Origin: an archaeon UBA583
GTDB lineage: Archaea; Nanobdellota; Nanobdellia; Woesearchaeales; UBA583
Direction: 5' to 3'
Length of the DNA stretch: 64,000 nt
NCBI GenBank assembly: GCA_002506365.1
Contig: DAXK01000024.1
Location: 30,944-94,943, forward strand
Shown: positions 17,601 through 64,000 of the stretch, piece by piece
How positions within the stretch are numbered: the first letter of the stretch is position 1
Layout: each line of letters starts with the position of its first letter
Notes under the pieces: generated by a model
What the model was told of the DNA's origin: nothing
Database searches by the model: none
The model's input: the letters and a program-made list of their open reading frames with translations, nothing else
Program-made: the position numbers and the translations under genes

Positions 17601-20600
17601 ACAAATAACTCATTTTCATTTGAAACAAAAATTTCTTTCCCAATATCTGTTGTTAAATCATTTGAAACTAAATATCTATATGAAAACCCACTAATTGATT
17701 TCTCAAATAATTCATTTCCTAAAGAATCATAAGCTACTAAATTTCCTAAACTTGAAATTCCAACATACTCATCACCAACTAATTGTTCAAAATTATAATA
17801 TGAAAAATCAACTTCTCCTGACAATAAACTTAAAACTCCAGCAGTATCTGAAAAACTATTTCCAGACTTTGAACTAACTAAACCTAAATTAAACTGATTA
17901 TCTTGATCACAATTAAAACAACTAAAAGAAACATTCTTAGCTTGATTACAAGAAATAGGAACTGACACCTCACTAAAATCATAACTATTTGTAACCTTTA
18001 CATCTAAAATTAAACCACCATTTGTTGTTAAATTTCCTAAAGCTAAATTATCTGAACTTGTTAAAGTTTTAGCAAAAAATATATTTGCATTCTCAGAACA
18101 TAAATCACATTTAATATTTAACTTATCAGGAATTTGATTACAACTAACACTCACATCTAAACTACTATTATCTTCAAGATTAGTTCCTAATACATTAAAA
18201 TACGGACTCGAAGAAATTGAATTTGAATTATAATTAATTACTCCTTGTGAAACATTAAAAACTGGAACAGTATAATAATTATTTCCATCACAATTTGGAC
18301 AATTAAAATTATAACTCTTAGAAGATAAATCCTCACAAGAAACAGGAACTGAAACTTTATCAAAATTATAACTTGTATAAGTTTCATAAGAAACTTCCGC
18401 TGTAATATTTCCAACAACTCTTACACTATTTTGAGTATCACAACTAGCGCAACTTAAAGTTAAATCATTATTCTCTAAAGCATTACAACTAACTTTTCCA
18501 GTTACAACTTGATAATCTAAAGATTCTTTAGTATAAACTTCAAATAAAGGATTTAAATTATTTGTTGAATAATACTCTTTAGTTGAATTTCCATATTCAA
18601 TAAATGAATTTAAATCATACTTAGATTGATTTTGTAAACCTAACTCAAAATAATTACTATTATCACAACCTGAACAAGAAATTGAAACTTGAGGTTTAGT
18701 TTCCAACAATGAACAAGGAACATCAAACTCAACTGGACTAGCAGTTGGACTACAAGCTGAAACAGTATTTGAATCAATATTAAAAGTATTTGAACTAAAA
18801 AATACTTCTAAATTATTTGAACCAACTCCATTATAACAAGTATCCAATTTAACTTTACAAGTTTTAAACTTAGAAACATCACCAATAAATAAATTTGTAT
18901 CAAAAACAAAATTATCTGATAAACTAACTTCATTATTTTTACCAATTAAAACTGAATCAGATTTATCAAAACTATCTTGAGCTGTATACTCAATAAAATT
19001 CTTTTTACTAACAGTTGCTAATGAAACTAAATCTGAATCAGTAACTACATCAAAACTTAAATCTAATCCAGACATATCTCCAACTCCTACAACTCCAACT
19101 GAAACTTCACAAATTTCAGCATTAGTATTAGATAGATTATTTGAAATTACTTGAGTAGCAGAATCTAAATCAAAATAATTTATAACATTTAAAACATCAA
19201 AATTTTTATAGCTTTGGTATCCAGAACTTAAAATTGAATTAGTATCTAATTTAACTGAACTTGATCCAACATCTAAAAATAAATCATTTTTAACTCCAAC
19301 AGATGAAACTCCAAAATCAACATAACAAGCATCCCCGGACACACTAAAAGGAACATCAATTGTTAATTGAGAACTTGAAGTAATATCTAAAACAGACTTA
19401 GGAACTTCATTTGCAAAAGTTTTCTCATCAAAATTAGTAATTAATTTTAAATTAGATAAATCCATTGAAACTGTTGAATTATCCTTTAATTTAAATGTAA
19501 TATCATTCCCTAAAACTCCTAAATTATTAACTCCCGCCTTAAAACTTAAATCGCAAGTTTCCCCATTTAAATTTTTATAAGTTAAATCAGTTGATAATAA
19601 TTTATTTTTTAAAGATAAAAAACTATCAGGAGTTACTCCAGACTCAATATCATAATTTGAATCAAAAATAATTGAAGAATCAATTTGATAGTTATTACCA
19701 TCAATTGAAACATTAACATCAGGATTTCCTAATTTTGTTGATTTAAAAAACACATTACAACTATTCCCAACACCAATACCTAAAGAAGATAAATTTACAA
19801 AAATTTCTGAACTAGTATTTAAACTTAAAACTAAATCAGTTAAATCTGATTTTAAAACATTTGAATATCTTGTATAAGAACTAAAACTATCAAAAACATC
19901 ATACAAAATTAACTCATCATTTGAAATTTTACTAACACTTGAAAAATCATTAGTCCAAACACCTAAAGAATCCCCATAAATTAAAACATTACTCCTACCT
20001 CCAAACTCTCCAAAACTTAAAAAATTAATTTCATTGATAAACTCAGAACTCCACAAAACATTACTCAAATTATCTGAACTTAAAACTTTCAATTTATTAT
20101 TTGAAAAAACTGCAAAATTATTTTGATAAATTCCAGAATTTAAAAATAATAAATTATCAACATTAATTGAATATTTTTCTGACTCAATTGAATTTTTCTC
20201 AAAAGATAAAACAGACTCAGAATTTAAAACTACTTTACTTCCATTAACAAAAGCTGGAACTCTAAATAAATATTCTCCAGAATTATTAACTAACAAATAA
20301 GACTCATTATTTTCACAACCAACAACACCCAGTCCATAAAGACTACAACTCTCAATTAAAATTGAACCAGCTAAATCAAAATCTCCGGCTAATTTGTAAT
20401 CAATATATTTCAAACTAACAGTTTGAATTAAAGTATTTGATGAATCAAAAAAATTAATAGATGTATTTTCAAATAAATTTAAATTTTTATTTTCTAAAAT
20501 AACTTTCCACCTTTTTTTATAATAATCATCTGCAACTGTATAAGTTTGTCCTAAAACAGCTAAATTTTCTAAACTCCAAATTGGATCATTAGAACTTAGA

Positions 20601-20812
20601 TCTTTTGTTGAACTTATAGAAAGAACTTGTGAATTTAAATTTATAAATTCAAAACTCAATCCCATATCATCATAATCTAAAGTTTCAAAATAAATTGTAA
20701 CCTCACTAGAATTTTCTGATATGAAAACATCTCCAAACTGGAAACTGTAAACATTTGAAATAAACATTAAAAATGTTATGAAATAAATAATTTTGTGAAG
20801 TAATTTTTCCAT
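5627..20812 (-). CDS. Giant secreted surface/adhesin-like protein (about 5061 aa from the ATG)
   Basis: One uninterrupted ORF. The track start at 20818 is TTG. An in-frame ATG at 20810-20812 sits about 26 nt from a TATA-like box. N-terminal signal is LLHKIIYFITFLMFISNVYSF. Content includes beta-propeller-like repeats, many Ig/Big-like modules (TDSNGKCTF, TDNLGTCEINW, TDVLGTCKILW), a possible CBM-like module near nt 6470-6900 (..EGAFYVDRFELF) and an A/G/S linker (nt 6241-6310). No C-terminal TM helix is seen. The stop overlaps the next ATG. Confidence 0.9.
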   Translation of the reverse strand: MEKLLHKIIYFITFLMFISNVYSFQFGDVFISENSSEVTIYFETLDYDDMGLSFEFINLNSQVLSISSTKDLSSNDPIWSLENLAVLGQTYTVADDYYKKRWKVILENKNLNLFENTSINFFDSSNTLIQTVSLKYIDYKLAGDFDLAGSILIESCSLYGLGVVGCENNESYLLVNNSGEYLFRVPAFVNGSKVVLNSESVLSFEKNSIESEKYSINVDNLLFLNSGIYQNNFAVFSNNKLKVLSSDNLSNVLWSSEFINEINFLSFGEFGGRSNVLIYGDSLGVWTNDFSSVSKISNDELILYDVFDSFSSYTRYSNVLKSDLTDLVLSLNTSSEIFVNLSSLGIGVGNSCNVFFKSTKLGNPDVNVSIDGNNYQIDSSIIFDSNYDIESGVTPDSFLSLKNKLLSTDLTYKNLNGETCDLSFKAGVNNLGVLGNDITFKLKDNSTVSMDLSNLKLITNFDEKTFANEVPKSVLDITSSSQLTIDVPFSVSGDACYVDFGVSSVGVKNDLFLDVGSSSVKLDTNSILSSGYQSYKNFDVLNVINYFDLDSATQVISNNLSNTNAEICEVSVGVVGVGDMSGLDLSFDVVTDSDLVSLATVSKKNFIEYTAQDSFDKSDSVLIGKNNEVSLSDNFVFDTNLFIGDVSKFKTCKVKLDTCYNGVGSNNLEVFFSSNTFNIDSNTVSACSPTASPVEFDVPCSLLETKPQVSISCSGCDNSNYFELGLQNQSKYDLNSFIEYGNSTKEYYSTNNLNPLFEVYTKESLDYQVVTGKVSCNALENNDLTLSCASCDTQNSVRVVGNITAEVSYETYTSYNFDKVSVPVSCEDLSSKSYNFNCPNCDGNNYYTVPVFNVSQGVINYNSNSISSSPYFNVLGTNLEDNSSLDVSVSCNQIPDKLNIKCDLCSENANIFFAKTLTSSDNLALGNLTTNGGLILDVKVTNSYDFSEVSVPISCNQAKNVSFSCFNCDQDNQFNLGLVSSKSGNSFSDTAGVLSLLSGEVDFSYYNFEQLVGDEYVGISSLGNLVAYDSLGNELFEKSISGFSYRYLVSNDLTTDIGKEIFVSNENELFVYSSEGNLIDSFTGFNKPKFEVTDKLFVINSNLNYVVYDYNLNVFKTGNLLNADGVLVDVLKLDVLGDLRDEIIVVTKDSGVSKFVIFDNTFSQKRVLTIDKYFNNFEVDKTTTGVILASSGYDVTKLSLSAIDGIEILVDGVSSYNYVDDFVNKITLPNLNGSVNSFMSSEVFSGIMDIFVPLKFVTSNFNPEFLADLTMIFSLDSDELVSEVLVDNFNFKSNLFAGQSYFADGVQINYNNDFAPLKIKKFSNLPGYVVGGIEVYDKNSLIVNSCDSSSFQDLDKEGFSNGCDFGLFYSINRDKDYFLYNDKVVPVIESSSTLDSNLLGNYLNKKISLNSSYSTSSINYVVSKINSIDLSDNSYSSINFLVKDENNLSISNVSLSPINNCYLDDFVKGSEKVLTDFYTKFNLNGKNYYACSQIVNENVSEINFVIEQLDNGEEISYGTFGLINDRPSVSNVTFDSYSFERNRNQKLNYSVLDLEGDDVQVIFQVYSLKQSKWVNLSVENISTTPGVGVNREVNFQLGNNYVGIVNYKIIVKDFERVSKNYLGDKIIEQGTFEVLNRQLDIVKVDTGLSRDLVINVYENGTLDAPNLGDIICNYYQTDSVGNNPSLLGNTLSNVGNSTCSLQLPSFYNPDTYYYYVVVSSKGFDDFQSEVLNQTFKSDLLASANLGATIFRTSNEDLVVSLTNSENNIITEQGVYCNLEILGETKTVTSDSNGKCTFTSFIKNIPNLNVCSIALGQINYEIYLTNYNTNKYFVDTNLTDSVFLKDNITLSIDSPVNSIAYDTGDNLVFDLGILDSCGNSVNVNNGDVFWKYLETDTGDFSVISTKQNDNWIIPADVFGSIDLQASVDSLMYAVVNTSVLLSVDDVLNIQITTEDEYSRHNNSLESISAQITTGNGLAIASSEYTGTWSGYRCDWFVENSLGQRTIYEDSLTNSNGQCFSALKPTCDYNVGEFKVGVILSGNLNPTLPVFENVSQNDVVFYDDFSNAQISPRISPLYTTGQADDVFYGNENQLSLEFSDSCNNFESSIANPIWSYVDSSRGVDLIFGDGFNVSYIPSSIMRGSSSVVVNLNDSTYYRFGNVIENITIVNTAKITDLIVPSYLTPNAVNQISCRVSVSGVSDLSFYQTEFDVGGNRFNVSTDSNGLAVLNINSNTLNTGAQEVYCRIYDFENPNYKIEADNSTYQFKELNLPDDLSIIGNVIFGNREYDLTKSSIGNIIYPHNMNNYTVYRKSIYPLYGPEKLYAGVEFATIGAVGTSKEGQQILVDGANVSMSIYRTSNGNLIDTVSCIQDPNKSNLGLTNPRDSIDNYHLKNCNLEWNPDNLPVGEYNVVISAAVPGQTGWTSEVYNADFEIWGILNSTLTIPAENARLVVNQNNNFNTHVYDEFGTRLDSSSVSVDYLIRDASENCYGVYLGTVSGGSDNTFAKTMNIYSINNYVVNDYRINDNWKIFTKSYGDFYETLDTYSSYELGPVHTCNYFWKERTFIDENNIYFDYPVNVDMITPEAAIIAPIDIGENSGKMKFVCRVRTFHGTAVPYAPTKLSCDGCNTINPTITQNGDSTGIIEKYITPVVSDYGNSYDFTCDVDNLLNIGNGNRLVVSGPATRNVLMSETLGTGWGDLPENYTFPTLSVGAYSDSSCSQPVTWVKSANAGDVYIGFSTSKGSDDLQSYRIEQSPITGSFPGPTPSEGSLIAAADSKCVRFSAMTKSNGVNAYTFKVKIQDESLVSQGSFFEKSVTVYIDDVGPKVQTITVEKPYYKPGANANVFVNLNPLTIGVDGLNDMKDIRYSEDTAYDKSFSKDSEGNWSASVVVPGSSGTNTFNLRIRDQSLYKDDKTFSIFVDDTEPTINTATVDSGCAGLPLTYGTACSPNTNFQIDVSDDNQIDRVRVTGSGLGNIYDSGTNGVNAGTFSKLDMVKNTNSLGDGTYAITFEAWDEAGNRGFTTVNLKVIKTGVVLNSLTQSKTYLSGTGDTADITGTVSSNVDLTIKEVISQSVNQCVASGQSCGVSAAIDASGFVEGKNTVTITAKDSLDNPTSKNFDFYLDTTLPVVTITTLVNDQYVKGSISVKANVVDVNRDNSLVSFTIGSCTETMTYISANQFSKSFDTTKPCVGGDGTKTLTVSATDKSGKVGSQSIDLKIDNTLPVVVISDPADGLVTENTHKVLATITEANFANAKAKVDSEVETLMICSGSGLTRNCEFDVITTGYSDGDHSVTVKATDNSGNQKSLVRNFKIDNNAPTINIYKVSNSDGRAYTSGIDGNYISGNMKLFATINDAADEGVDTTYDCIVDGTTYDMVSEGADAYSCTIDTTGISDGTYIFTVQAKDTLDNLNSKTVSLNVDNLNPVITGESFSGSLIKSGDSQTFSLTAGEPLYDICKVFYSDNGVLDGGDDEIVSVAVSGNTCGTTYSMSEGAGVSGNKFILVELTDRAGNKAVKSYDFVLDNAAPIIRSFGITNAEPSSPVTGGFPGVSPLKNMSWSSWVDENNGVNNLSRVYIRPVSGIGVDTNLREDLVYNGGINRFELTDKLPTYFGGTEGTTVFEVVAQDLVGNVGTDDFTFFISNSPPVINSVTSDVALLEVAEQSVVITSNITATPVTLRDLTFNIAEPDGNTFVYNFPQGGFTSPDSFDSYTFTPRVAGFHSVEVVATNIGNKNQTQTFTNVFNAVGTTSGSLTLSPQVSNADPIYVGEDYSFDLQVKLDNDGLARMKNSQLIFSGDGLKVDATNSIVNCGTILTGNFCLTTVRVTLDENVGNGNKLFFVLSNWKNVDSSNGFVSDTFTVNIDPTNRVRIISNELEKFDLNVGFNPQNIGLVNIQNYGNDKLDNVDISIYNGTLKQGLDNSDFTISFTPASYSSLAVSESKTFSMDMFSATARGNYNGYLKVDSTECLDDTCRSFVFTNISIFGKADSDFVQTVPLNNVIDKSSNVVTSLLATQGAIDFHCKYFDSLNVNSLIQNYPAELVLDSNLGESILLSNNTYNLSGPNVPGSLQYIWNFTTYSPGDYSLICRPKDDDSNFVKAGAQAVRNVTLIGNIIPTISYDYPATCLGSLYLYDSIACNNVNVTVNLKDFYGYPVINSQVNFTTNATEFNTLDQIGSCYTDNLGTCEINWNPDVLTAGIYNVSVLAGKSYYNSGNTSSEIQILGGYGLKILSPLDNILIYQDNYNFDFEVTDIDGSDITNSLSYNTTWSLESSAGSKVLSSSRAFNWNIDNTVLGNYNLTAKIQIGPDEVIAQRNVVVVRDTLIGSLTVENDILFRESLDILDITQSNVSVLVTDSATGLNVNNSNVMFKLNGVTDLGTCQTDVLGTCKILWNPSINLEAGVHNVSAFVSKQNYYNKSFSDLATVKVYVEPKWNTPSTISGELSNQFNMPLVCEVYESYKTVANPTEKFDTKFYMHKPAVLPKYVLGSVVNVDGVIYSWNSEDATNVTAQFSELFVGFDTKTNISVYETSSPVEDLGFNNLDTVSVEFNELSGGTTWDLLIQTPSGFETVFSGESSLSNSAFIGSNKQIKNVYIVFNGGAGASIKLSKVVLEQTITEETLEIGEAIILGSQFSSNPEVFGNLENFVGEDSIGFRSSANVNSLSSSEFNEDGDRSLGLNVSGVATNGVMDLEWNSPNLNDVSSFASLGFVVNNPNNLTLNLTVSILDETNCLVNFDLGEVKGKLSYPDINLSQFNSICNSNLDKLVLSFENVGQDPVEGAFYVDRFELFKSVLTENALASLNFHPYEYGDFRFSCEISDVANYVVKNSSKEKIIKLINSGSSADAGESAGGASDAAGAAASAGSVLSFELDLIEGDYVSANGAKGELETVKLYNLISSSRTFNISSSNNNLINFEGKNSTIVEMDEDTKVSEFIVSFDTTNIVKAQLEEFLLVTDIVSGESISVPIKLTLVDVNINVINPTSSSKLVDVLGANVYEINSNVEFNSSASYDGEFDKFGYEFKVANEVCETDYYGRVGDGLNIGCMMPFVKSNMLEDLIMRVNLGGSQNE
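9870..12370 (-). repeat. Tandem array of about eight Ig-like (Big/cadherin-like) domains
   Basis: Eight domain boundaries recur roughly every 95-110 aa: YIDDVGPKV, FVDDTEPTI, YLDTTLPVV, KIDNTLPVV, KIDNNAPTI, NVDNLNPVI, VLDNAAPII, FISNSPPVI. Confidence 0.6.
17880..18730 (-). repeat. Five tandem 60-75-aa repeats, each carrying a C-x(9-12)-C-x2-C triad
   Basis: PCSLLETKPQVSISCSGCDNSNYF; SCNALENNDLTLSCASCDTQNSV; SCEDLSSKSYNFNCPNCDGNNYY; SCNQIPDKLNIKCDLCSENANIF; SCNQAKNVSFSCFNCDQDNQF. Confidence 0.65.
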
Positions 20813-20833
20813 ATACAAATTAATATCATTTTC

Positions 20834-33257: not shown

Positions 33258-34040
33258 ATGATACGAAAAAATCATAATTATTTTAAATATAAAAAACAAA
33301 TTAAATTTAAAAAAATAACAAAAATAATTTTTTCAACAATAATTCTAACTACATTAATAACACCAGTATATTCTCAAACTAATATTTCATATGAAATAAA
33401 AGGTTTCTGTAAAAATCAACCAATTGAAATTAACTTTTATAATTCCTCCCAATTTAAAGATAGAAAAAAAATTAAAAAAGAACTCTGTATAGATAGACAA
33501 ACGCCAAAAGAAGATAATTGTCTTGAATTTGATGAAATAAAACTCGAAGCTAAATTATATAATGGGCATAGTGATTACTTTGACCTTACAAAATCATTTT
33601 ACTTATCAGAAAATAAAATTGAATATACTTTTAAAGAATCAAAAGACTATTTATTAGAAATAATTCCATACGATAAAAACATTCCCGAATTTGAAATAAT
33701 TATCCCTATAGAAGAATGTAAAATATATAACGATAAACTAAAACAAATTGAAATAGAAAAAGAATTAGAAAAGAAAGAAAATGAAAAATACAAAGATTTA
33801 AATTTTAAAAATAAATCTGAAATAATTAACAAAAAACCAACTGAAAAAAATTTAACACAACAAGAAAAAATCCTTAAAGAAAACCCAGAATTTATTTTAA
33901 GAAATTTTCAACTAACACAATCAGCAAAATTAAATCCAGGATTAACTAAATTTGACAAAATTAGAATAGTTGGACTTATGTTAATTTTTTTAACAGTATT
34001 ATTTAGACTATATAAAATTAAAAAAGAATTAAAAAAATAA
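33258..34040 (+). CDS. Surface protein with signal peptide, conserved Cys domain and C-terminal TM anchor (paralog of 35586..36824)
   Basis: YEIKGFCKNQPIEINFYNSSQFKDRKKIKKELCIDRQTPKEDNCLEFDE..KLYNG aligns with the 35586 ORF. The C-terminal anchor is IRIVGLMLIFLTVLFRLY. Confidence 0.65.
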   Translation: MIRKNHNYFKYKKQIKFKKITKIIFSTIILTTLITPVYSQTNISYEIKGFCKNQPIEINFYNSSQFKDRKKIKKELCIDRQTPKEDNCLEFDEIKLEAKLYNGHSDYFDLTKSFYLSENKIEYTFKESKDYLLEIIPYDKNIPEFEIIIPIEECKIYNDKLKQIEIEKELEKKENEKYKDLNFKNKSEIINKKPTEKNLTQQEKILKENPEFILRNFQLTQSAKLNPGLTKFDKIRIVGLMLIFLTVLFRLYKIKKELKK

Positions 34041-56415: not shown

Positions 56416-57594
56416 ATGGGAGACTTTAGCAATAAAAAAATCATAAACCACACAAAAAATGCATTTTTTAAACAAGTTAAAGCATATCAAAAAACTCTAA
56501 AACCAACAAAAGAAATTGAAGGATTTGGAAGTGCACCAATTGTTGGAGAAAAAAACTATCCATTTTTACAAATTCACAATTCATCTAATGAAGATAAATC
56601 TAATAATTTTATGAAAGCAAATGAAATTGTAAAAAAAGGTTACAAAGACATATTTGAATTAAAAGCAAAAAACATTCTTGGAAGCACTCAAAACACACAC
56701 ATTAGAAAAACTACAGATAGAATCAATAATGAAATCATAGATATTTATAAATCTAAAAAAGCAATAGAATTTAACTCAACTTTTGAAACCGAGATTAAAT
56801 TTGACAAAGTATTAACAAATAAAATGGCAGGAGTTATGGGTTCAAAAAATGAACTAGAATCATTAAATGCTACTGAAAATACAGCTACATCAAAACAAAT
56901 TGAAAAATACTCTAGCAATGATGCTAAAGCAAAAGAAGCATGTATTAAATTATACGAGCAAGGTAAAAATGAACAACAAATAATTCACCTATTAGCTCTT
57001 GGAGTTTTTGGAGTTAATATAAATAAAAAATTAGTTCCAAGTAGATGGGCAATTACAGCTTATGATAAAATGATTGAATCTCACCTTCACAAACAAATTT
57101 TAAAATACAATCCAATTAATCAATACGAAGTTTACTATTGTCAAAATAAATCTGACACTCATGTAAACATTTTATTACCTGATTATTATATGGGAACTCA
57201 TACAGAAGATTGGTCAAATTCAGGAACAGAGGAGTGGGGAGGACACAATACAGACATATTTAACAATCAAAATAAAATACCAACTCCAGAACCATTGAAT
57301 TCAGGGGGGTATTACGCAACTAAGATTGCGCTTAATGAACACTTACAAAAAAGAAAAAAACAAGCTGCCGCAATTATGATTAGAGTTATTCGAGATTACG
57401 ATGTTCCACTTGGAGTTGTATTTGTTCGTGAATGTGTTAGAGAAAGTTTTCAAAATCAAATATTTAAAACTTCTAGTTTTAAAGAACTAGATAATTTTAT
57501 TAAAACTAAATTCCCAACACACTACAAATACTTCATCAATTCAAATGTATTAAAAGAACAACGTAAACAAACAAAATTAACTCAATTTTATTAA
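56416..57594 (+). CDS. nreA: Nre-family DNA repair protein (NreA-like)
   Basis: FGSAPIVGEKNYPFLQI, LVPSRWAITAYDKMI, SGGYYATKIALNEHL..KKQAAAIMIRVIRDYDVPLGVVFVRECVRE. Confidence 0.65.
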   Translation: MGDFSNKKIINHTKNAFFKQVKAYQKTLKPTKEIEGFGSAPIVGEKNYPFLQIHNSSNEDKSNNFMKANEIVKKGYKDIFELKAKNILGSTQNTHIRKTTDRINNEIIDIYKSKKAIEFNSTFETEIKFDKVLTNKMAGVMGSKNELESLNATENTATSKQIEKYSSNDAKAKEACIKLYEQGKNEQQIIHLLALGVFGVNINKKLVPSRWAITAYDKMIESHLHKQILKYNPINQYEVYYCQNKSDTHVNILLPDYYMGTHTEDWSNSGTEEWGGHNTDIFNNQNKIPTPEPLNSGGYYATKIALNEHLQKRKKQAAAIMIRVIRDYDVPLGVVFVRECVRESFQNQIFKTSSFKELDNFIKTKFPTHYKYFINSNVLKEQRKQTKLTQFY

Positions 57595-57663
57595 AAATTA
57601 GTAAATAAAAATAAATTAGAAAAGTAACTAATATTTAAAAAATCAAAAATTAGTTAATTATTT

Positions 57664-58560
57664 ATGACAACTAGAAATGTATCAGTTTCAGAGCTGATTA
57701 ATTTTAAAATTCACAACTGTGAACTATCTTTAGAATTAACTCAAATATTATATACTGCTATTAAAACATTACCAAATAGCCCAGAATATAAAACACTAGA
57801 AGTTAAAAATATTTTAAAATTCTTAAAAAATATTGACTTATACCTAATTAAAGAAAAAAATCAAAGTGCCGCATACTATAAAGACAATATGATTTATTTT
57901 AATGTTGAAAACATATTAACTGAAATAAAAAATATAAAACCTCATCAAATAAATCCAATTATTCAAACTTCAATTAATCATGAAGTAACACATCTATTTC
58001 AAGACATTAAAACACAATACATTCAAAGATTTAAATTTAGAAGTAATAAATTGAAAAAAAAATTACAACCAACTTTTTTTGGAAAAATATTCCCAATAAA
58101 TAATAATAATTGGAAAAGAGAAGAATTATTTGAATTAATAAATAAAATATACTTAGAAGGTCTCGCTATGTATATTGAATATATTGGAAAAGATGTAGAC
58201 TTAGACCAATTACAATCAAACTGTAAAAAAATAATCCTACAAACTAAAAACAATTATTTAAATTATAATCAAACTAATAAAGTTGAAAACAATAATTTAG
58301 ATAAATATAGTCTAGGACTATTAATGTCAATAATAATATTACAAGATACAAAATTAAATTTATCATTTGAACAATTATCAAATGTTGGATTTAAACAATT
58401 TATAGAATATTATGAAAAATCAGCACAAAACCAAAGTTATGAAATCTTAATTTCATACTCATCTAACAAAGGTATTTTTGATTACCAAAGTTTAATTAAA
58501 TATTGGAAACAAGAAAAAAGAGAACTAAAAAATAAGAATACAAAAAATATATCAAATTAA
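57664..58560 (+). CDS. Putative zinc metallopeptidase (peptidase MA-like)
   Basis: HExxH in SINHEVTHLFQ, plus the downstream YLEGLAMYIEY (EGxAxY third-ligand motif). Confidence 0.4.
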   Translation: MTTRNVSVSELINFKIHNCELSLELTQILYTAIKTLPNSPEYKTLEVKNILKFLKNIDLYLIKEKNQSAAYYKDNMIYFNVENILTEIKNIKPHQINPIIQTSINHEVTHLFQDIKTQYIQRFKFRSNKLKKKLQPTFFGKIFPINNNNWKREELFELINKIYLEGLAMYIEYIGKDVDLDQLQSNCKKIILQTKNNYLNYNQTNKVENNNLDKYSLGLLMSIIILQDTKLNLSFEQLSNVGFKQFIEYYEKSAQNQSYEILISYSSNKGIFDYQSLIKYWKQEKRELKNKNTKNISN

Positions 58561-58605
58561 AAAAAACACTAAAAATATATAAACTAAAAATAATAAAAAT
58601 AAAAT

Positions 58606-59202
58606 ATGCAAGCAGATAGAATTTTTATGTTAGATTTTTTTAAACAATTAAATGAAAAAATAGTTGAAAAATATGGACCAACAATTCAAATTAAATTTTA
58701 CATTTTAGGTGGAACTTTTTTTGTAATGAACAGTTTAAGAAATAATAGTCCTGACATTGACATTTTATGTCCTGAAGGACAATCATATAAAATACTAACT
58801 CAAATTGGAATCCCATTAGCTAAAGAATTTGAAATTAGTTTAGACTTATTATATAAAAATACATTAGACTGTACATTTTTACCAAAAAATTACTCCAGAT
58901 TAGCAAGACCTTACAAAAGAGAAAGAAGTAACCACCCAAATTTGAAAATTTGGACTCTTTCCCCATACCACATCATACTATCCAAACTTGCAAGATACTC
59001 ACCAAAAGATGTAAATGATATTAACTTAATTATGACTAGTGGAAAATTTAAAATTCGTAAAAAAGAATTATTAAAACAAAAAAACCTTTATGATTATTCA
59101 GCTATAAAAAGTAAATTTGAAAATAACTTTAAAGAATTTCTAAACAAATACGAACCAATTTTAAAAAAAAGTTGGTTAGAAGAATTATTAGATAATTCTT
59201 AA
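58606..59202 (+). CDS. Putative minimal nucleotidyltransferase-fold protein
   Basis: YILGGTFFVMNSLRNNSPDIDIL fits the G-[GS]-x(9-13)-D-x-D NTase motif. Confidence 0.4.
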   Translation: MQADRIFMLDFFKQLNEKIVEKYGPTIQIKFYILGGTFFVMNSLRNNSPDIDILCPEGQSYKILTQIGIPLAKEFEISLDLLYKNTLDCTFLPKNYSRLARPYKRERSNHPNLKIWTLSPYHIILSKLARYSPKDVNDINLIMTSGKFKIRKKELLKQKNLYDYSAIKSKFENNFKEFLNKYEPILKKSWLEELLDNS

Positions 59203-59243
59203 AATAAATAAGTGAAAATAAATAAATAAAATTAAAAATAATT

Positions 59244-59732
59244 TTATCTTGTAATAATAACTCTTGGTTTTTTAATTAACTTTCCTCTAAACCTAAAACC
59301 TTTTCTAACTGTCTTTAAAATTAAATTTTGAGCAAGACCATTTGCTGGAGCATAACTTGCAATCTCTGCATCTTGTTCACTATAAAACTTATTCTCTGCT
59401 TGAATTGGTTCAAGTTCTAAATCATGCATTACCTTTAACATACATTTCTCAGTTTGAGTAATACCCATCATAACTTTTTGAGTATCAGGGTCAACAGATT
59501 TAATTTTATAAGTATCTCTTTTAGTTTCCTCAATTTTTTCAAATAAAGTAATTAAATTTCTAGCAGTAGATAACTTAACTTCATGTTCTAAATCATTCAT
59601 CTTTCCACTATGTTGTTCCCTTAAATTCTTATTATCTAATCTCAACTTAGAATACTTATGATATAAAACTTCATATTTTTCACTTGTCGGATTAAGTGCT
59701 CTCTTAATCTTATCTAAAACCATAAATATCAT
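59244..59732 (-). CDS. grpE: GrpE-like nucleotide exchange factor
   Basis: N-terminal coiled coil, then LELEPIQAENKFYSEQDAEIA and VRKGFRFRGKLIKKPRVII, matching the GrpE C-terminal beta-domain pattern. No dnaK or dnaJ is in the window. Confidence 0.5.
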   Translation of the reverse strand: MIFMVLDKIKRALNPTSEKYEVLYHKYSKLRLDNKNLREQHSGKMNDLEHEVKLSTARNLITLFEKIEETKRDTYKIKSVDPDTQKVMMGITQTEKCMLKVMHDLELEPIQAENKFYSEQDAEIASYAPANGLAQNLILKTVRKGFRFRGKLIKKPRVIITR

Positions 59733-59875: not shown

Positions 59876-61309
59876 ATGGATTTTTTAGAGATAGCCCAAT
59901 TATTTGAAAAACTAGAAATTACTTCAAAAAGATTAAACAAAATTTTAATTTTAAGAGACTTTTTAGAAAAAGACCAAAAAATCGCAGAATTAATATTTGA
60001 TATAATTTGTGGTAATTTCCAAAGAGAAAATAATAAAAAATCTATTGGAATTTCATTAAAAACACTATTCTCAGTAATTAGTTTTTTATCTCAAAAATCA
60101 GAACTACAAGTTGAAAAAGAATTTAATAAAATCGGAGACATTGGAGAAGTTGCAAGTAAATTAATTTCTCAAGTAAAACAATCATCATTATTAACTCAAA
60201 AATTAACTATTAATCAAATTACACAATCACTTCAAAAGATTTCTCAAACAAATGGAAATAACTCAAATAAAATTAAAAAAGAAATCTTAGGAAACTTATT
60301 TTTAAATGCTACAACAGATTTAGAATATAAATTTTTAGCAAGATTATTAATTGATGATTTAAGAATTGGAGTATCCGAAGGAGTATTAAAAGAAGCATCA
60401 GTAAATTATTTATTTCCAAAGATAATTGGAATTCATAACTCATGTTCAAAATGTTTTTATATTAATTTAAATTCTAAAAATTGTCTAAATTGTAACGATG
60501 TAATTAATCCAGACGCTCAACAAGAAATATTTGAAAATAGATTTAAAATTGTAGAAATTGGAACTCCAAAAGAAATAATTGGTCTTGACAAATTTATTGT
60601 AAATGAACAAAAAGAAATTGAAATCTTAAAATTCGCATTTAGATTAAATCCAAAAACACATATTATTCAAACTCAAGACACAAGATATTTTTACAAAAAA
60701 TTTTTAGAAACTTTTGAAAAAAAATATAATACTTTAAACTCATTTTCAGAAATTATTTCTGATACAAAAAAAGATTTATCATCAATATTAAAAGTAAATA
60801 TTAAATATTTTAGACCAATTAAATCAATGCTTGGAGTAAGATCTAATACTGTAGAAGATAGTTTTGAAGTTTCAGGTATGCCAGCAGTATTAGATTATAA
60901 ATACGATGGATTAAGAGTTCAAATTCATTCTCACAAAGGTGAAATTCAATTATTTTCTCGAAACTTAGATAATATCACAAAACAATTTCCAGAAGTTTTA
61001 GAATTTATTAAATTAAACTTTCCAAAAACTGATTTTGTTTTAGATTCTGAAACAGTAGGATACGATTTTGAAAATCAAAAATTTTTACCATTTCAAATGT
61101 TATCTAAAAGAATTTTATCAAAAAATATTGGAGAAGTAAATCATATTAAAGTAGTAGTAAAAGCATTTGATATATTAAAATTAAACAATGAAACACTTGT
61201 AGATTTTCCATATCAAAAAAGAAGAGATATGTTAGAAGAATTATTTGTAAATACACCAATTAGAGAAAAGATTAAATTTGATTTAGATAAATTAAAACAA
61301 ATAAAATAA
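59876..61309 (+). CDS. lig: ATP-dependent DNA ligase, N-terminal fragment (DBD plus motifs I-IIIa only) with a zinc-ribbon insertion
   Basis: Motif I is LDYKYDGLRVQIH (Lys codon at nt 60899-60901), motif III is FVLDSETVGY, motif IIIa is VKAFDIL. The ORF stops about 45 aa later, before motifs IV-VI and the OB domain. An extra roughly 90 aa with CSKC..CLNC (nt 60440-60493) lies between the DBD and the adenylation domain. Confidence 0.8.
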   Translation: MDFLEIAQLFEKLEITSKRLNKILILRDFLEKDQKIAELIFDIICGNFQRENNKKSIGISLKTLFSVISFLSQKSELQVEKEFNKIGDIGEVASKLISQVKQSSLLTQKLTINQITQSLQKISQTNGNNSNKIKKEILGNLFLNATTDLEYKFLARLLIDDLRIGVSEGVLKEASVNYLFPKIIGIHNSCSKCFYINLNSKNCLNCNDVINPDAQQEIFENRFKIVEIGTPKEIIGLDKFIVNEQKEIEILKFAFRLNPKTHIIQTQDTRYFYKKFLETFEKKYNTLNSFSEIISDTKKDLSSILKVNIKYFRPIKSMLGVRSNTVEDSFEVSGMPAVLDYKYDGLRVQIHSHKGEIQLFSRNLDNITKQFPEVLEFIKLNFPKTDFVLDSETVGYDFENQKFLPFQMLSKRILSKNIGEVNHIKVVVKAFDILKLNNETLVDFPYQKRRDMLEELFVNTPIREKIKFDLDKLKQIK

Positions 61310-61310
61310 A

Positions 61311-61652
61311 ATGGCAAAATTTGAAGGCACATATAGAGAATTTAAAACTCATTGTATGGCAAGTATTACAAATAAAGTCCAATCAATCGCAAAAAAAGAA
61401 AAAGAAAAAAGAAATTATATTTGTGAAAATTGCAATAAAAATATGTCGAAAGATAAATTAAATTATCAGGCAGCCCATTACCCAGATTCCAGAATTAAAA
61501 TAGTCGAAGAAATTTTAGAAAAATATAAACTTAATGATATAATTTTATGTGATTTAAATAAAGTTCAAAAAGAATTTATCGAAATTCATACTCCAATAAC
61601 AAATGTTTGTAAATTTGTTTGTAAAACTTGTCACAAATTGGAATTCAAGTAA
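61311..61652 (+). CDS. Cys-rich protein, possible HNH-type nuclease
   Basis: 113 aa. YICENCNK..NYQAAHYPD...NVCKFVCKTCHKLE gives C-x2-C ... H ... N-x5-C-x2-C-H. It starts 1 nt after the ligase stop. Confidence 0.35.
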   Translation: MAKFEGTYREFKTHCMASITNKVQSIAKKEKEKRNYICENCNKNMSKDKLNYQAAHYPDSRIKIVEEILEKYKLNDIILCDLNKVQKEFIEIHTPITNVCKFVCKTCHKLEFK

Positions 61653-61703
61653 ACTATTCAATTACAAAAAATAATTATATAATTAATATAATTACATATT
61701 TTT

Positions 61704-62477
61704 ATGTTTAAAAAAAACCAAAAACAAACTTTAGTTTTATCCGGAGGAGGAGCATTAGGATTTGCTCACATCGGAATAATCAAAGCTTTAGAAGAAAAAG
61801 AAATCTCATATAACGAAATAATTGGAACTTCAATGGGAGCAATAGTTGGAGCATTTTTATCCATTGGATATACATATAAACAAATTATTGAAATAATTAA
61901 AGAATTAAATTATAGAAAACTTCTAAAAATAAATATATTACACCTCAATTCCTTAATTGACCAAAAAAACATTAGAAAATTTTTAACTGAAAAAATAGGA
62001 GAAATTACATTTAACCAAACACAAATTGAACTAAAAATTATAGCAACAAACCTTGAAACTGGAAAATCAAAAATATTTGATAAAACAACAAATATAAAAA
62101 TTGTTGACGCAATTTGTGCAAGTTTAGCAATTCCAGGAATATTTAAACCATACCCAATTGAAAATCAAATATACATTGATGGATTTCTAAGTTCAAACCT
62201 CCCATTTGAATTTTCAACAAATAAAAAAATATTAGCAATAGATATTAATACAGAAAAATATATCCAAAGTCACAAACATAAATTTGCTCCCCAAATTTTA
62301 GAAAAATCGGTCCACATAATGATACTAAACCAAACTAGAGATAAATTAAAACATAATAAAAATAAACAATTAAAAATAATTGGAATAAATTTAGAAAAAT
62401 TTAAAACATATGACTTCCACAACTGGGAAAAAATATTAAATCAAGGATATAAACAATTTATTGAAAATTATCAATAA
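61704..62477 (+). CDS. Patatin-like phospholipase
   Basis: [22 protein letters not shown] (oxyanion motif), [10 protein letters not shown] (GxSxG) and [11 protein letters not shown] (catalytic Asp motif). Confidence 0.85.
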
Positions 62478-62536
62478 ATTAAAAATAAATTTTAACTAAT
62501 AATAATAAAAAAAAAAATATAAATTATATAATATAA

Positions 62537-63199
62537 CTAAGCTGCCACATTAAATTCTTCAGCAGGTTTTGTATTATTTAAATCTCTAACTTTTTCTAAA
62601 ACTACTTTCATATAATTATACTCAGAAACTAAATTTTCAAATAACTCTGAAAACTTAATATACTCTAAATTAAAACTATTCAAAGAAGAATTTAAATTAC
62701 CTCTATTTGGGTTTAATTTTAAATACACACAATTTTTATATAAAGTTTCACAAACCACAAACTGTTTTCTCATTTGAGCAAAATTATCAACAAAATCACT
62801 AGACAAACCAGAATTTTTAAAAAGTTCCAAATCACTTTTCATCAAATTATTCAAACTAATTACAATTAAATCTAAACAAGTTTTATATCCATAAAATTTT
62901 TCATCAAATGATTTTGTAAAAGTTTTATCCAAATCAACTGTTTTTGACAAACCAAAAAATTTTGAATTATAATAAATCTTCTCCCTCATAAATTTAGAAT
63001 AATCAATCAAAAAACTTACATTTTCTAAAACTGCTAAAAAGTTTTGTAAAAAATCTTTAGAAGTATCATACTTTCTTAATTTAAATTTCTTAATAAACAA
63101 ATCAAACCTAGAATCACCTAAATTTGAATTATTACTATCGCTATTTAATTTTGCTGTTTTCGCAAGTTCATTATTTGCCCACATTTCAGATCTTACCAT
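62537..63199 (-). CDS. Hypothetical protein
   Basis: 220-aa ORF with a TATA-like box about 27 nt upstream. No motif recognised. Confidence 0.5.
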   Translation of the reverse strand: MVRSEMWANNELAKTAKLNSDSNNSNLGDSRFDLFIKKFKLRKYDTSKDFLQNFLAVLENVSFLIDYSKFMREKIYYNSKFFGLSKTVDLDKTFTKSFDEKFYGYKTCLDLIVISLNNLMKSDLELFKNSGLSSDFVDNFAQMRKQFVVCETLYKNCVYLKLNPNRGNLNSSLNSFNLEYIKFSELFENLVSEYNYMKVVLEKVRDLNNTKPAEEFNVAA

Positions 63200-63303
63200 A
63201 ACTACTATAAAAAATTATCATATATAAATTTAAGTTATAAAAAAATAAAATAAAAGAAATATCAATAAATAAAATTGTAATTATATAAATTATATAATTA
63301 AAT

Positions 63304-63612
63304 TCAATCTACAGTAAATAAAACTGAATCATGCTCAACATCCCACAATCCAATCCTAGCACCAGCATCAAGCCAACCATGCGCATAATTTAAACTCGCA
63401 AAAGCATTAATATAATCATTATTATCTCTAAAATGTTGAGCATCACCAAAATAACTCTCAGCCATCAATAAATAATCTTTAGCCATCTTATCCAAATGAG
63501 TTTTATCAGGGCAACATAATTTTAATTTTTTTAAAGCTCTCCCAGTCACATCAAAATACTTATCTAATTTCTCATCAGAAATCAGATTTTGTAAAGGTTT
63601 ATCACTTGTCAT
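63304..63612 (-). CDS. DUF357-family protein
   Basis: AESYFGDAQHFRDNNDYINAFASLNYAHGWLDAGARIGL matches the DUF357 signature as I recall it. Confidence 0.7.
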   Translation of the reverse strand: MTSDKPLQNLISDEKLDKYFDVTGRALKKLKLCCPDKTHLDKMAKDYLLMAESYFGDAQHFRDNNDYINAFASLNYAHGWLDAGARIGLWDVEHDSVLFTVD

Positions 63613-63627
63613 TTTAAATTCTCAAAT

Positions 63628-64000
63628 TTATAATCTAGGAATACTAGCTTCATGACCACAAGCATTACACTTTAAACTAATTCCATTATTAGCAAAAACA
63701 GTATCAGGACTTTGACAATGTGAACACTTCACAAATTGTTCAAAATACTTATTAACTGATTTATTTAAACCTTCAGGTTGAAATCTAGAATGTAAAATTA
63801 AATCTCCTCTATTCCCAACTTCTCCTCTCACTCCTAAATCCTTTAACATAAACTTTGAAAAATGATCTGTTTCTCTTTCAATATGCTTAGCAATCGCTGT
63901 GAAATTTGTAATAATAGTTCTTGACTTAATCAGCTTACCTTTAACAGCAGGCACTTCAAATCTTTCCTTTTTGTATAAAACTTCTGGTAATTCAGCATAA
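63628..64000 (-). CDS. eif2b: Translation initiation factor aIF2 beta subunit (N-terminus beyond the right edge)
   Basis: The frame stays open to nt 64000 (..YAELPEVLYKKERFEVPAVKGK..), and the track start is a GTG artefact. The C-terminal Zn ribbon is CSHCQSPDT....LKCNACGH. Confidence 0.85.
   Translation of the reverse strand, partial: YAELPEVLYKKERFEVPAVKGKLIKSRTIITNFTAIAKHIERETDHFSKFMLKDLGVRGEVGNRGDLILHSRFQPEGLNKSVNKYFEQFVKCSHCQSPDTVFANNGISLKCNACGHEASIPRL

What the first reader, a model, noticed from the sequence alone, without database searches (positions are those of the whole stretch)
59876..61652. DNA ligase ends after motif IIIa, carries a zinc-ribbon insertion and abuts a Cys-rich HNH-like ORF; split or disrupted gene
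Seen in sequence: the ligase ORF has the DNA-binding domain, motif I (KYDGLR), motif III (FVLDSE) and motif IIIa (VKAFDIL). It terminates at aa 477, before motifs IV-VI and the OB-fold. No ORF in the window supplies the missing part.

A roughly 90-aa insertion with CSKC...CLNC lies between the DBD and the adenylation domain. One nucleotide after the stop, a 113-aa ORF begins with C-x2-C ... H ... N-x5-C-x2-C-H, which resembles an HNH nuclease.

Inference, two options:
- a gene split like those known in Nanoarchaeum-type genomes, with the C-terminal half encoded elsewhere
- disruption by a homing-endonuclease-type insertion

Either matters, because this may be the cell's only replicative ligase.
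Basis: partly seen in the sequence, partly recalled or inferred. Interest (0 to 1): 0.65.

Follow-up and report, generated by a model that had tools for sequence, protein, structure and literature searches.

The report
Conserved half-length DNA ligase gene
The truncated DNA ligase gene is real, ancient and under selection in a whole clade of tiny DPANN archaea, so it is probably one piece of a two-piece ligase; the missing piece was not found, and the neighbouring nuclease-like gene did not cause the truncation.

Summary
ORF 59876-61309 encodes 477 aa of a Lig1-type ATP-dependent DNA ligase. It has the DNA-binding domain, a ~100-aa zinc-ribbon insertion and adenylation motifs I, III and IIIa. 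It stops before motifs IV-VI and the OB fold.

This is not an error, a pseudogene or a recent disruption:
- About 95 homologue clusters (41-100% identity) have the same truncated architecture. They include two complete Woesearchaeota chromosomes.
- A deeper sister group (31-38% identity) breaks at the same loop.
- The catalytic residues are invariant.
- dN/dS is 0.11-0.19.
- The stop lies at the same codon in relatives with different downstream genes.

The 113-aa ORF belongs to an uncurated family of 239 clusters with weak but consistent HNH-type signals. It sits in a hypervariable slot and is absent from close relatives that carry the same truncated ligase. It therefore did not split the gene.

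No C-terminal half was found in the window, within ±10 kb in about 28 related loci, or in the visible top hits of database searches.

Best reading (about 0.5): one subunit of a two-piece ligase, with the partner encoded at an unlinked locus. Main rival (about 0.3): an autonomous truncated ligase-like protein alongside another ligase.

The parts
59876..61309 (+). ligN: a 477-aa gene for the N-terminal ~2/3 of a Lig1-type ATP-dependent DNA ligase, including its TAA stop
   Evidence: ORF list and sequence. Pfam and NCBIfam domain hits. About 95 truncated homologue clusters. dN/dS 0.11-0.19 with the stop at the same codon in relatives. AF2 model with pLDDT 86 matches archaeal and human Lig1 structures.
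59876..60403 (+). DNA-binding domain (aa 1-176). It contains KQSSLL, aligned to the QKSFF segment of P. furiosus ligase.
   Evidence: PF04675 at aa 3-173, E=1.7e-26. Aligns to 2CFM residues 1-176. That QKSFF is a PCNA-binding motif is recalled from the literature, not tested here.
60404..60703 (+). Insertion of about 100 aa (aa 177-276) with a zinc ribbon: C190, C193, C203, C206 (nt 60443-60493)
   Evidence: No counterpart in 2CFM. The four Cys are at least 90% conserved across 95 sequences. The insertion is also present in full-length relatives P0097, P0099, P0100, P0104 and P0109. AF2 predicts short beta-strands at 182-198 with pLDDT above 90.
60704..61249 (+). Incomplete adenylation (nucleotidyltransferase) domain, aa 277-458. 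It carries motif I K342 (60899-60901), motif III D390/E392 (61043-61051), motif IIIa F431/D432 (61166-61171) and helix RRDMLEELF.
   Evidence: PF01068 profile positions 2-152 of 204. K342, D344, G345, R347, D390, E392, F431, D432, R449 and R450 are invariant in 95 sequences.
61250..61309 (+). Poorly conserved C-terminal tail (aa 459-477) and stop codon. This is the break point, just before where motif IV lies in full-length ligases.
   Evidence: The alignment with full-length ligases ends here. Tail length is 0-22 aa in relatives and the stop is TAA or TGA.
61311..61652 (+). ORF113: a small Cys/His protein and divergent member of an uncurated HNH-like family. It is a lineage-specific passenger gene.
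   Evidence: 239 representative clusters at E<=1e-3. Invariant H56 and H93; C38, C41, C104, C107 and H108 conserved in at least 96%. HNH_2 hits in 16 of 100 members, and a ZorE-HNH hit at E=7e-4 for ORF113 itself. Absent from relatives' loci.
61310..63303 (.). Lineage-variable slot between ligN and the syntenic anchor. It holds ORF113, a patatin gene (61704-62477) and a 220-aa ORF (62537-63199, minus strand).
   Evidence: Most relatives have DUF357 directly after ligN. L215 (92%) has a different small ORF there. L216 (82%) has a 210-aa unrelated ORF followed by patatin. The P0008 contig has patatin only.
63304..63954 (-). DUF357 and aIF2-beta genes: the conserved downstream synteny anchor of ligN
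   Evidence: Found next to ligN in nearly all type-1 truncated-clade loci.
56416..59732 (.). Upstream context: NreA-family gene (56416-57594, +), a two-gene insert (57664-59202, +) and GrpE (59244-59732, -)
   Evidence: Pfam Nre_N/Nre_C and DUF6036. Nre-GrpE-ligN order in L006, L011, L215 and L216.

Best explanation
**Shown.** ligN is a stand-alone, selected gene. It has been conserved through deep divergence in a clade of Woesearchaeota/Nanoarchaeia-type DPANN archaea. It encodes the DNA-binding domain, a zinc-ribbon insertion and the first part of the adenylation domain of a Lig1-type ligase. The active-site lysine (K342) and motifs I, III and IIIa are intact. The protein ends in the loop before motif IV.

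**Inferred.** Motifs IV and V complete the AMP pocket, and the OB domain with motif VI is needed for self-adenylylation. This is established ligase enzymology, not tested here. The protein therefore most likely works as the large subunit of a two-piece ligase. A separate polypeptide of about 170-200 aa (motifs IV-VI plus OB), encoded at an unlinked locus, would complete it in trans by fragment complementation. Other split genes of Nanoarchaeota work this way.

The adjacent 113-aa HNH-like ORF is an unrelated passenger in a variable slot.
For: - **Conserved truncation.** 96 listed homologues at 41-100% identity are all at most 498 aa and lack PF04679. The nearest full-length ligases are only 30-34% identical.
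- **Genomes.** There are 15 GTDB species representatives, including the complete chromosomes CP060218.1 and OZ242164.1. A sister group (L026, L027, L032; 31-38% identity) breaks at the same loop.
- **Catalytic residues.** The motif I, III and IIIa residues are invariant across 95 sequences.
- **Selection.** dN/dS is 0.11-0.19. All four close lineages have exactly 477 codons although their downstream genes differ.
- **Independent assemblies.** The identical protein is found on 5 contigs.
- **Structure.** The confident AF2 model matches Lig1 structures, with Foldseek E about 1e-19.
- **Permissive site.** A canonical ligase on L214 has an in-frame stop a few residues upstream of this site, giving adjacent 442-aa and 184-aa ORFs. 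The loop may therefore be a permissive break site.
Against: **The predicted partner was never seen.**
- There is no C-half in the 64-kb window.
- There is none within ±10 kb in about 28 truncated-clade loci.
- Two protein-database searches for short C-terminal ligase proteins returned only canonical fragments in their visible top 120 hits. No hit lay on a contig longer than 73 kb, and none carried a locus tag of a truncated-clade genome.
- A DNA motif scan of metagenome contigs gave 120 loci. All were full-length ligases, edge fragments or frameshifts.

**Other points.**
- The C-terminal tail of ligN is variable, so it is not an obvious docking element.
- These searches are limited. Divergent C-halves would probably rank below the 120 hits shown. 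The complete genomes could not be scanned a second time.
Confidence: 0.5

Rival explanations
1. ligN is an autonomous truncated ligase-like protein. No C-terminal partner exists. Another enzyme in the genome (a canonical ATP-dependent ligase, an NAD+ ligase or a small ligase) joins Okazaki fragments. ligN would have a derived role, for example a DNA- or nick-binding factor that may retain PCNA binding, or a nucleotide-binding factor.
For: - No C-half was detected by any search.
- The family sits on a long branch, only 30-34% identical to the nearest full-length ligases. That is compatible with changed constraints.
- The tail after the last conserved helix is variable or absent, as in P0088 and P0093.
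- The DNA-binding domain is the best-conserved part of the protein.
Against: - Strict invariance of the motif I lysine and the motif III/IIIa residues over deep divergence argues for retained nucleotidyl-transfer chemistry. An incomplete pocket cannot perform that chemistry alone, by established ligase enzymology.
- No second ligase was seen. The genomes could not be searched for one, so this is untested rather than negative.
Confidence: 0.3
2. The ligase gene was disrupted by insertion of an HNH homing-endonuclease-type gene (the 113-aa ORF).
For: - ORF113 starts 1 nt after the ligase stop.
- It belongs to a family with HNH-type motifs and weak HNH HMM hits.
- The slot it occupies varies between strains, which is consistent with mobility.
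Against: - Relatives lacking ORF113 carry the same 477-codon gene.
- More distant relatives have DUF357 directly downstream of ligN.
- No ligase-coding remnant lies downstream of ORF113.
- The truncation predates divergence to 31% identity.
Confidence: 0.02
3. The truncation is a sequencing or assembly error, or the gene is a decaying pseudogene.
For: Isolated cases of exactly this kind exist among other ligase loci. L111 has a frameshift. L218 is a 3x-coverage long-read contig. L005 has an internal deletion.
Against: - The identical protein appears in 5 independent contigs.
- About 95 clusters share the same architecture.
- dN/dS is 0.11-0.19 with a conserved stop position.
- Both TAA and TGA are used as stops in relatives.
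Confidence: 0.02
4. The full ligase is made from this locus by recoding (stop-codon read-through or frameshift) or by protein trans-splicing through a split intein.
For: None specific. The L214 ligase has a single in-frame TAA near the same site.
Against: - The sequence downstream of the stop is unrelated to ligase in every frame and differs between relatives.
- The 19-aa tail is too short and too variable to be an intein N-fragment.
Confidence: 0.02

Closest known systems
Archaeal/eukaryotic Lig1-type ATP-dependent DNA ligases (e.g. P. furiosus 2CFM, S. solfataricus 2HIV, human LIG1 1X9N)
   Same: - The DNA-binding domain and the adenylation-domain motifs I, III and IIIa are the same.
- Sequence E-values are 1e-48 to 1e-28.
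- Foldseek E is about 1e-19 with TM about 0.65.
- The segment aligned to the P. furiosus QKSFF motif is retained as KQSSLL.
   Different: - It lacks the last ~40 aa of the adenylation domain (motifs IV and V) and the whole OB domain (motif VI).
- It carries a ~100-aa zinc-ribbon insertion.
- It falls below the TIGR00574 cut-off.
Split protein-coding genes of Nanoarchaeum equitans and other DPANN (recalled from the literature: reverse gyrase, alanyl-tRNA synthetase and others, encoded as two unlinked ORFs)
   Same: - A DPANN lineage.
- A conserved ORF that covers only the N-terminal part of a normally single-chain essential enzyme.
- The other part is not adjacent.
   Different: - In the known cases both halves are identified. 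Here the second half is not found.
- The break lies inside a catalytic domain, between motifs IIIa and IV, not between domains.
- No report of a split DNA ligase was found in the searched literature.
Minimal two-domain ligases (Chlorella virus, T7; recalled)
   Same: They show that ligase modules can be lost or added while activity is kept.
   Different: They keep the complete nucleotidyltransferase and OB domains and lack the DNA-binding domain. ligN has the opposite composition.
HNH_2 (PF13391) and HNH (PF01844) nucleases, including type IV restriction and defence effectors. This is the comparison for ORF113.
   Same: - The motif order is the same: CxxC ... AH(H)HG ... H ... LCxxCH(xxYD).
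- Sub-threshold hits occur in 16 and 7 of 100 family members.
- ORF113 itself hits ZorE-HNH.
- One family member is fused to an SRA domain.
   Different: - No member reaches a curated threshold.
- The spacing between the two invariant His is long (37 aa).
- ORF113 lacks the usual ~120-aa C-terminal domain and the terminal YD.
- The fold could not be modelled; pLDDT was 40.

Membership tests
Lig1-type ATP-dependent DNA ligase (TIGR00574; PF04675 + PF01068 + PF04679) | N-terminal DNA-binding domain | tested here: met
   PF04675 at aa 3-173, E=1.7e-26. Aligns to 2CFM residues 1-176.
Lig1-type ATP-dependent DNA ligase (TIGR00574; PF04675 + PF01068 + PF04679) | Motif I KxDGxR with the active-site lysine, plus motifs III and IIIa | tested here: met
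   K342, D344, G345, R347, D390, E392, F431 and D432 are invariant in 95 sequences.
Lig1-type ATP-dependent DNA ligase (TIGR00574; PF04675 + PF01068 + PF04679) | Motifs IV (EGxxxK) and V (xLKxK), which complete the adenylation domain | tested here: not met
   The PF01068 match stops at profile position 152 of 204. The alignment with full-length ligases ends before EGVMAK.
Lig1-type ATP-dependent DNA ligase (TIGR00574; PF04675 + PF01068 + PF04679) | C-terminal OB-fold domain with motif VI (LRFPR) | tested here: not met
   No PF04679 hit. A C-half HMM finds nothing in the window or in related loci.
Lig1-type ATP-dependent DNA ligase (TIGR00574; PF04675 + PF01068 + PF04679) | Whole-protein score above the curated cut-off | tested here: not met
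   TIGR00574 scores 179.1 bits against a cut-off of 217.8.
Nanoarchaeum-type split gene | The fragment is a conserved ORF under purifying selection with a fixed break point | tested here: met
   
Nanoarchaeum-type split gene | The complementary fragment is encoded as a separate gene in the same genome | tested here: inconclusive
   It was not found in the window, in ±10-kb flanks of about 28 loci, or in the visible top hits.
Gene disrupted by a homing-endonuclease insertion | Relatives lacking the endonuclease have the intact host gene, and host-gene remnants flank the insert | tested here: not met
   Relatives without ORF113 have the same truncated gene. No remnant lies downstream.
Pseudogene or sequencing artefact | Relaxed selection, variable lesions among relatives, not reproducible between assemblies | tested here: not met
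   dN/dS is 0.11-0.19 with the same stop codon position. The identical protein lies on 5 contigs.
HNH / His-Me finger nuclease (ORF113) | Match to a curated HNH model above threshold | tested here: not met
   ORF113 has no Pfam or NCBIfam HNH hit. The best family member hits HNH_2 at E=2e-4, below the gathering score. PADLOC ZorE hits at E=7e-4.
HNH / His-Me finger nuclease (ORF113) | Conserved CxxC ... H ... CxxCH metal and catalytic motif | tested here: met
   H56 and H93 are invariant. C38, C41, C104, C107 and H108 are conserved in at least 96% of 100 homologues.
HNH / His-Me finger nuclease (ORF113) | Beta-beta-alpha-metal fold | tested here: inconclusive
   The single-sequence AF2 model has pLDDT 39.8 and is unusable.
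Split intein / protein trans-splicing | Intein N-fragment at the C-terminus of the N-piece | tested here: not met
   The tail is 0-22 aa, variable, and has no intein-like block.

The most novel reading that the evidence does not exclude
A Lig1-family protein that has permanently lost motifs IV-VI and the OB fold, yet keeps an invariant active-site lysine. It would work with no homologous C-terminal partner. It could be completed by a non-homologous protein, or it could act as a new kind of nucleotide-binding DNA or nick factor that may retain PCNA binding. These DPANN genomes would then replicate with an unconventional ligation system.
Probability: 0.2. Interest if true: 0.85.

Novelty: new variant of a known kind. 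Interest (0 to 1): 0.6.

Why it matters
DNA ligase is an essential single-chain enzyme. I know of no natural ATP-dependent DNA ligase built from two polypeptides, and four literature searches that combined 'DNA ligase' with split-gene or two-subunit terms returned no report of one.

A clade-wide, selected gene that ends inside the nucleotidyltransferase domain means one of two things. Either the catalytic pocket can be assembled from two unlinked gene products, or these reduced archaea ligate DNA in an unconventional way. The first would inform ligase engineering and the study of gene fission in reduced genomes.

There is also a practical consequence. These proteins are labelled 'hypothetical protein' or plain 'DNA ligase' in public records. 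Completeness estimates and metabolic reconstructions of DPANN genomes may therefore miscount the replication machinery.

Tried and rejected
1. **C-half in the window.** tblastn with six full-length ligases and an HMM of 140 C-halves on six-frame ORFs found nothing. A weak hit at 33390-33560 is an unrelated 260-aa ORF with no Pfam hit.
2. **C-half next to ligN in relatives.** None was found in about 28 loci with ±10 kb flanks.
3. **P0211 as a free-standing C-half.** Rejected. The same locus also encodes the DNA-binding domain, so this is an internally deleted ligase.
4. **Protein-database searches with a C-terminal query and with a 115-aa profile**. They returned many short proteins that start at conserved Met positions. 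Cluster look-up shows longer 'partial' members, so these are gene-calling variants of contig-edge fragments. P0266 is an edge fragment.
5. **DNA motif scan EGxxxK...LRFPR with AT-rich codons** in viral and metagenome contigs. The hits were full-length ligases, edge fragments, or a frameshift (L111).
6. **L010.** This is a GC-rich bacterial OB remnant and is irrelevant.
7. **The 210-aa ORF after ligN in L216.** It is the size expected for a C-half, but its sequence shows no ligase motifs and no Pfam family is recorded for it.
8. **NreA as a hidden partner.** hhalign probability is 0.2%.
9. **P0087 as a further split.** It lies on a 3x-coverage long-read contig, so a frameshift is likely.
10. 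**Single-sequence AF2 of ORF113.** The model was unusable, so no fold search was run.
11. **Weak tblastn hit of ORF113 in L167.** It lies inside an RFC-like gene and is spurious.
Full report
**Observation.**
- The window (25.8% G+C) contains ORF 59876..61309 (+, 477 aa). Its TAA stop is followed by one base and then the ATG of a 113-aa ORF, 61311..61652.
- Pfam finds DNA_ligase_A_N at aa 3-173. It finds DNA_ligase_A_M at aa 318-463, covering only profile positions 2-152 of 204. There is no DNA_ligase_A_C.
- TIGR00574 scores 179 bits, below its 217.8 cut-off, and covers model positions 3-321 of 527.
- Against P. furiosus ligase (2CFM, 561 aa), residues 1-176 align to 1-176 and residues 277-466 align to 183-371. 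This gives a ~100-aa insertion at 177-276 carrying C190-x2-C193...C203-x2-C206. About 190 C-terminal residues are missing: the end of the adenylation domain with motifs IV and V, and the OB domain with motif VI.
- Motifs I (K342), III (D390/E392) and IIIa (F431/D432) are present.
- No ligase C-terminal sequence exists elsewhere in the 64 kb, by tblastn and by an HMM of 140 C-halves on all six-frame ORFs.

**Not an error, a pseudogene or a recent event.**
- A protein search returned 96 homologues at 41-100% identity. All are at most 498 aa and all lack PF04679. The nearest full-length ligases are only 30-34% identical.
- The identical 477-aa protein lies on five independently assembled contigs.
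- In an alignment of 95 sequences, K342, D344, G345, R347, R362, D390, E392, F431, D432, R449 and R450 are invariant. The four zinc-ribbon cysteines are at least 90% conserved.
- I compared the window with three relatives at 92%, 82% and 81% protein identity (L215, L216, L011). Pairwise dN/dS is 0.11-0.19 at dS 0.4-0.9. All four genes have exactly 477 codons.
- Stop codons in relatives are ordinary TAA or TGA, followed by unrelated sequence.

**Extent of the family.**
- A scan of one genome per GTDB species found 15 species with this truncated gene at 45-81% identity. Two are complete chromosomes: CP060218.1 (1.54 Mb) and OZ242164.1 (1.20 Mb).
- Three more distant loci (L026, L027, L032; 31-38% identity) share the clade's signature motifs DYKYDGLR, FSRNLE.LT.QF and SKRIMTK. 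They lack the zinc ribbon and end in the same loop, just before motif IV. The truncation is therefore ancient.
- Record titles place the organisms in Woesearchaeota, Nanoarchaeia or Nanoarchaeota.
- The zinc-ribbon insertion is not tied to the truncation. Full-length relatives P0097, P0099, P0100, P0104 and P0109 have it too.
- An AF2 model built with the 95-sequence alignment is confident (pLDDT 86, pTM 0.84). It matches archaeal and human Lig1 structures with Foldseek E about 1e-19 and TM about 0.65.
- Synteny in the type-1 clade is (Nre)-GrpE-ligN-[variable]-DUF357-aIF2beta.

**Search for the missing half.**
- The C-half HMM detects the C-terminal region in essentially every canonical ligase locus fetched. 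It detects nothing within ±10 kb of ligN in about 28 truncated-clade loci.
- Two database searches for short C-terminal proteins gave only relatives of canonical ligases in the visible top 120. One used the P0097 C-terminus and one used a 50-sequence profile of the motif IV-V region.
- Their recurrent Met starts coincide with conserved Met codons. Cluster look-up shows longer 'partial' members, so these are gene-calling variants of contig-edge fragments.
- No hit sat on a contig longer than 73 kb, and none carried a locus tag of a truncated-clade genome.
- A DNA pattern for EGxxxK-(117-127 aa)-[LIVM]RFPR in AT-rich codons retrieved 120 metagenome loci. All were full-length ligases, edge fragments, or one frameshift, L111.
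- These negatives are weak. The N-half scores only about 70% of a canonical sequence against family profiles (my estimate). A similarly divergent C-half would probably fall just below the 120 hits shown. The complete genomes could not be scanned again.
- One informative side result is L214. This canonical zinc-ribbon ligase has a single in-frame TAA at ...RRKMLERIVK*EKNKIKL, followed by a TTG start. It yields adjacent 442-aa and 184-aa ORFs broken a few residues upstream of the ligN break. It may be a pseudogene or a nascent split.

**The 113-aa ORF.**
- It is not linked to the truncation. The position just downstream of ligN is hypervariable:
  - ORF113 in the window and its twin contig L001.
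  - A different small hydrophobic ORF in the 92% relative L215.
  - A 210-aa ORF with no ligase motifs in the 82% relative L216.
  - Nothing before patatin in the 79% relative.
  - DUF357 directly after ligN in more distant relatives.
- ORF113 has no significant Pfam, NCBIfam or PHROG hit, but it is not an orphan. An exhaustive search found 239 representative clusters at E<=1e-3. In these the ~105-aa domain is usually the N-terminal part of proteins of 220-260 aa.
- H56 and H93 are invariant. C38, C41, C104, C107 and H108 are conserved in at least 96%. The family motif is CxxC...AH(H)HG...HxP...FLCxxCHxxYD.
- Scanned individually, 16 of 100 members hit Pfam HNH_2 (best E=2e-4) and 7 hit HNH. 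One member has a C-terminal SRA domain. PADLOC and NCBIfam give scattered weak hits, mostly to HNH effectors. These include ZorE for ORF113 itself (E=7e-4), a type IV restriction enzyme, a retron HNH, IscB and Cas9d.
- 'HNH-like' is therefore a reasonable remote-homology call at family level, below every curated threshold.
- ORF113 is a short, divergent member. It lacks the C-terminal domain and the terminal YD. Its fold could not be modelled.

**Mechanism.**
- Shown: ligN is a functional, selected gene whose product has the DNA-binding domain, an intact adenylate-accepting lysine and about two-thirds of the AMP pocket. It cannot by itself contain motifs IV-VI.
- From established ligase enzymology, motifs IV and V line the nucleotide pocket, and the OB domain with motif VI is required for ligase adenylylation.
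- The most economical inference is a two-piece enzyme completed in trans by an unlinked C-terminal gene product, as in other Nanoarchaeota split genes. I put this at about 0.5.
- The main rival, at about 0.3, is an autonomous truncated ligase-like protein coexisting with another ligase.
- Disruption by the HNH-like ORF, sequencing error or pseudogene, and recoding or intein splicing are each at most 0.02, for the reasons above.

**Comparison and novelty.**
- The protein works like, and descends from, Lig1-type ligases. It fails three defining features of the family: motifs IV/V, the OB domain with motif VI, and the curated score.
- It resembles Nanoarchaeum-type split genes, but the second half is unverified. 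The break lies inside a catalytic domain rather than between domains.
- Literature searches found no description of a split, two-subunit or truncated archaeal DNA ligase.
- I rate it a new variant of a known kind, with interest 0.6.
- The decisive step is a profile search of the two complete genomes.

Noticed in passing
window 60404-60703; also P0097, P0099, P0100, P0104, P0109: A ~100-aa insertion with a CxxC-x9-CxxC zinc ribbon lies between the end of the DNA-binding domain and the adenylation domain. It is conserved in the truncated clade and in a subset of full-length Woesearchaeota ligases. It is absent from solved archaeal and human ligase structures.
   Followed up: partly
L214 4579-6480 (ENA ERZ27245994 k141_148773): A canonical zinc-ribbon ligase carries a single in-frame TAA a few residues upstream of the ligN break point. 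This gives adjacent 442-aa and 184-aa ORFs, the second starting at TTG. It could be a nascent split or a pseudogene.
   Followed up: partly
L026 9935-11416, L027 9959-11539, L032 9947-11674: A deeper truncated-ligase group (31-38% identity, 493-575 aa) lacks the zinc ribbon and ends in the same loop. In L027 and L032 it lies next to a gene with an S1-domain-like N-terminus that resembles aIF2-alpha (by eye, not searched). Type-1 ligN lies next to aIF2-beta.
   Followed up: partly
window 61311-61652; P0352-P0500: ORF113 defines an uncurated family of 239 clusters at 50% identity. Members have an N-terminal Cys4/His3 HNH-like domain and variable C-terminal domains of about 120-150 aa, one of them SRA. 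The architecture resembles modification-dependent restriction or defence nucleases.
   Followed up: partly
window 57664-59202: A 298-aa ORF plus a DUF6036 nucleotidyltransferase gene lie between Nre and GrpE. In the 92% relative L215, Nre and GrpE are adjacent. L216 has two different genes there. This is a second strain-variable slot beside ligN.
   Followed up: partly
window 56416-57594: An NreA-family gene lies two to four genes upstream of ligN in several truncated-clade lineages. NreA is a PCNA-binding repair factor of unknown biochemistry (PMC4929162). It shows no profile similarity to the ligase C-half.
   Followed up: partly
window 601-5634 and 5627-20818 (minus strand): Two overlapping giant ORFs of 1677 and 5063 aa occupy about a third of the window. 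They were not analysed.
   Followed up: no
L005 4883-6299 (GCA_964367265.1): A ligase locus where the DNA-binding domain and the C-terminal half are present but the segment with motif I (about 135 aa) is missing. This is an internal deletion or an assembly artefact.
   Followed up: partly
protein database hits P0269-P0349: Dozens of 155-166-aa 'proteins' start at the conserved Met inside motif IV (EGxM|xK) of canonical ligases. Of the four clusters with more than one member, three contain longer members flagged 'partial' and one contains a longer 338-aa member. They are gene-calling artefacts that could be mistaken for split C-halves.
   Followed up: yes
window 1-64000: ARAGORN found no tRNA gene, and no Rfam family reached its gathering score, in 64 kb.
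   Followed up: yes
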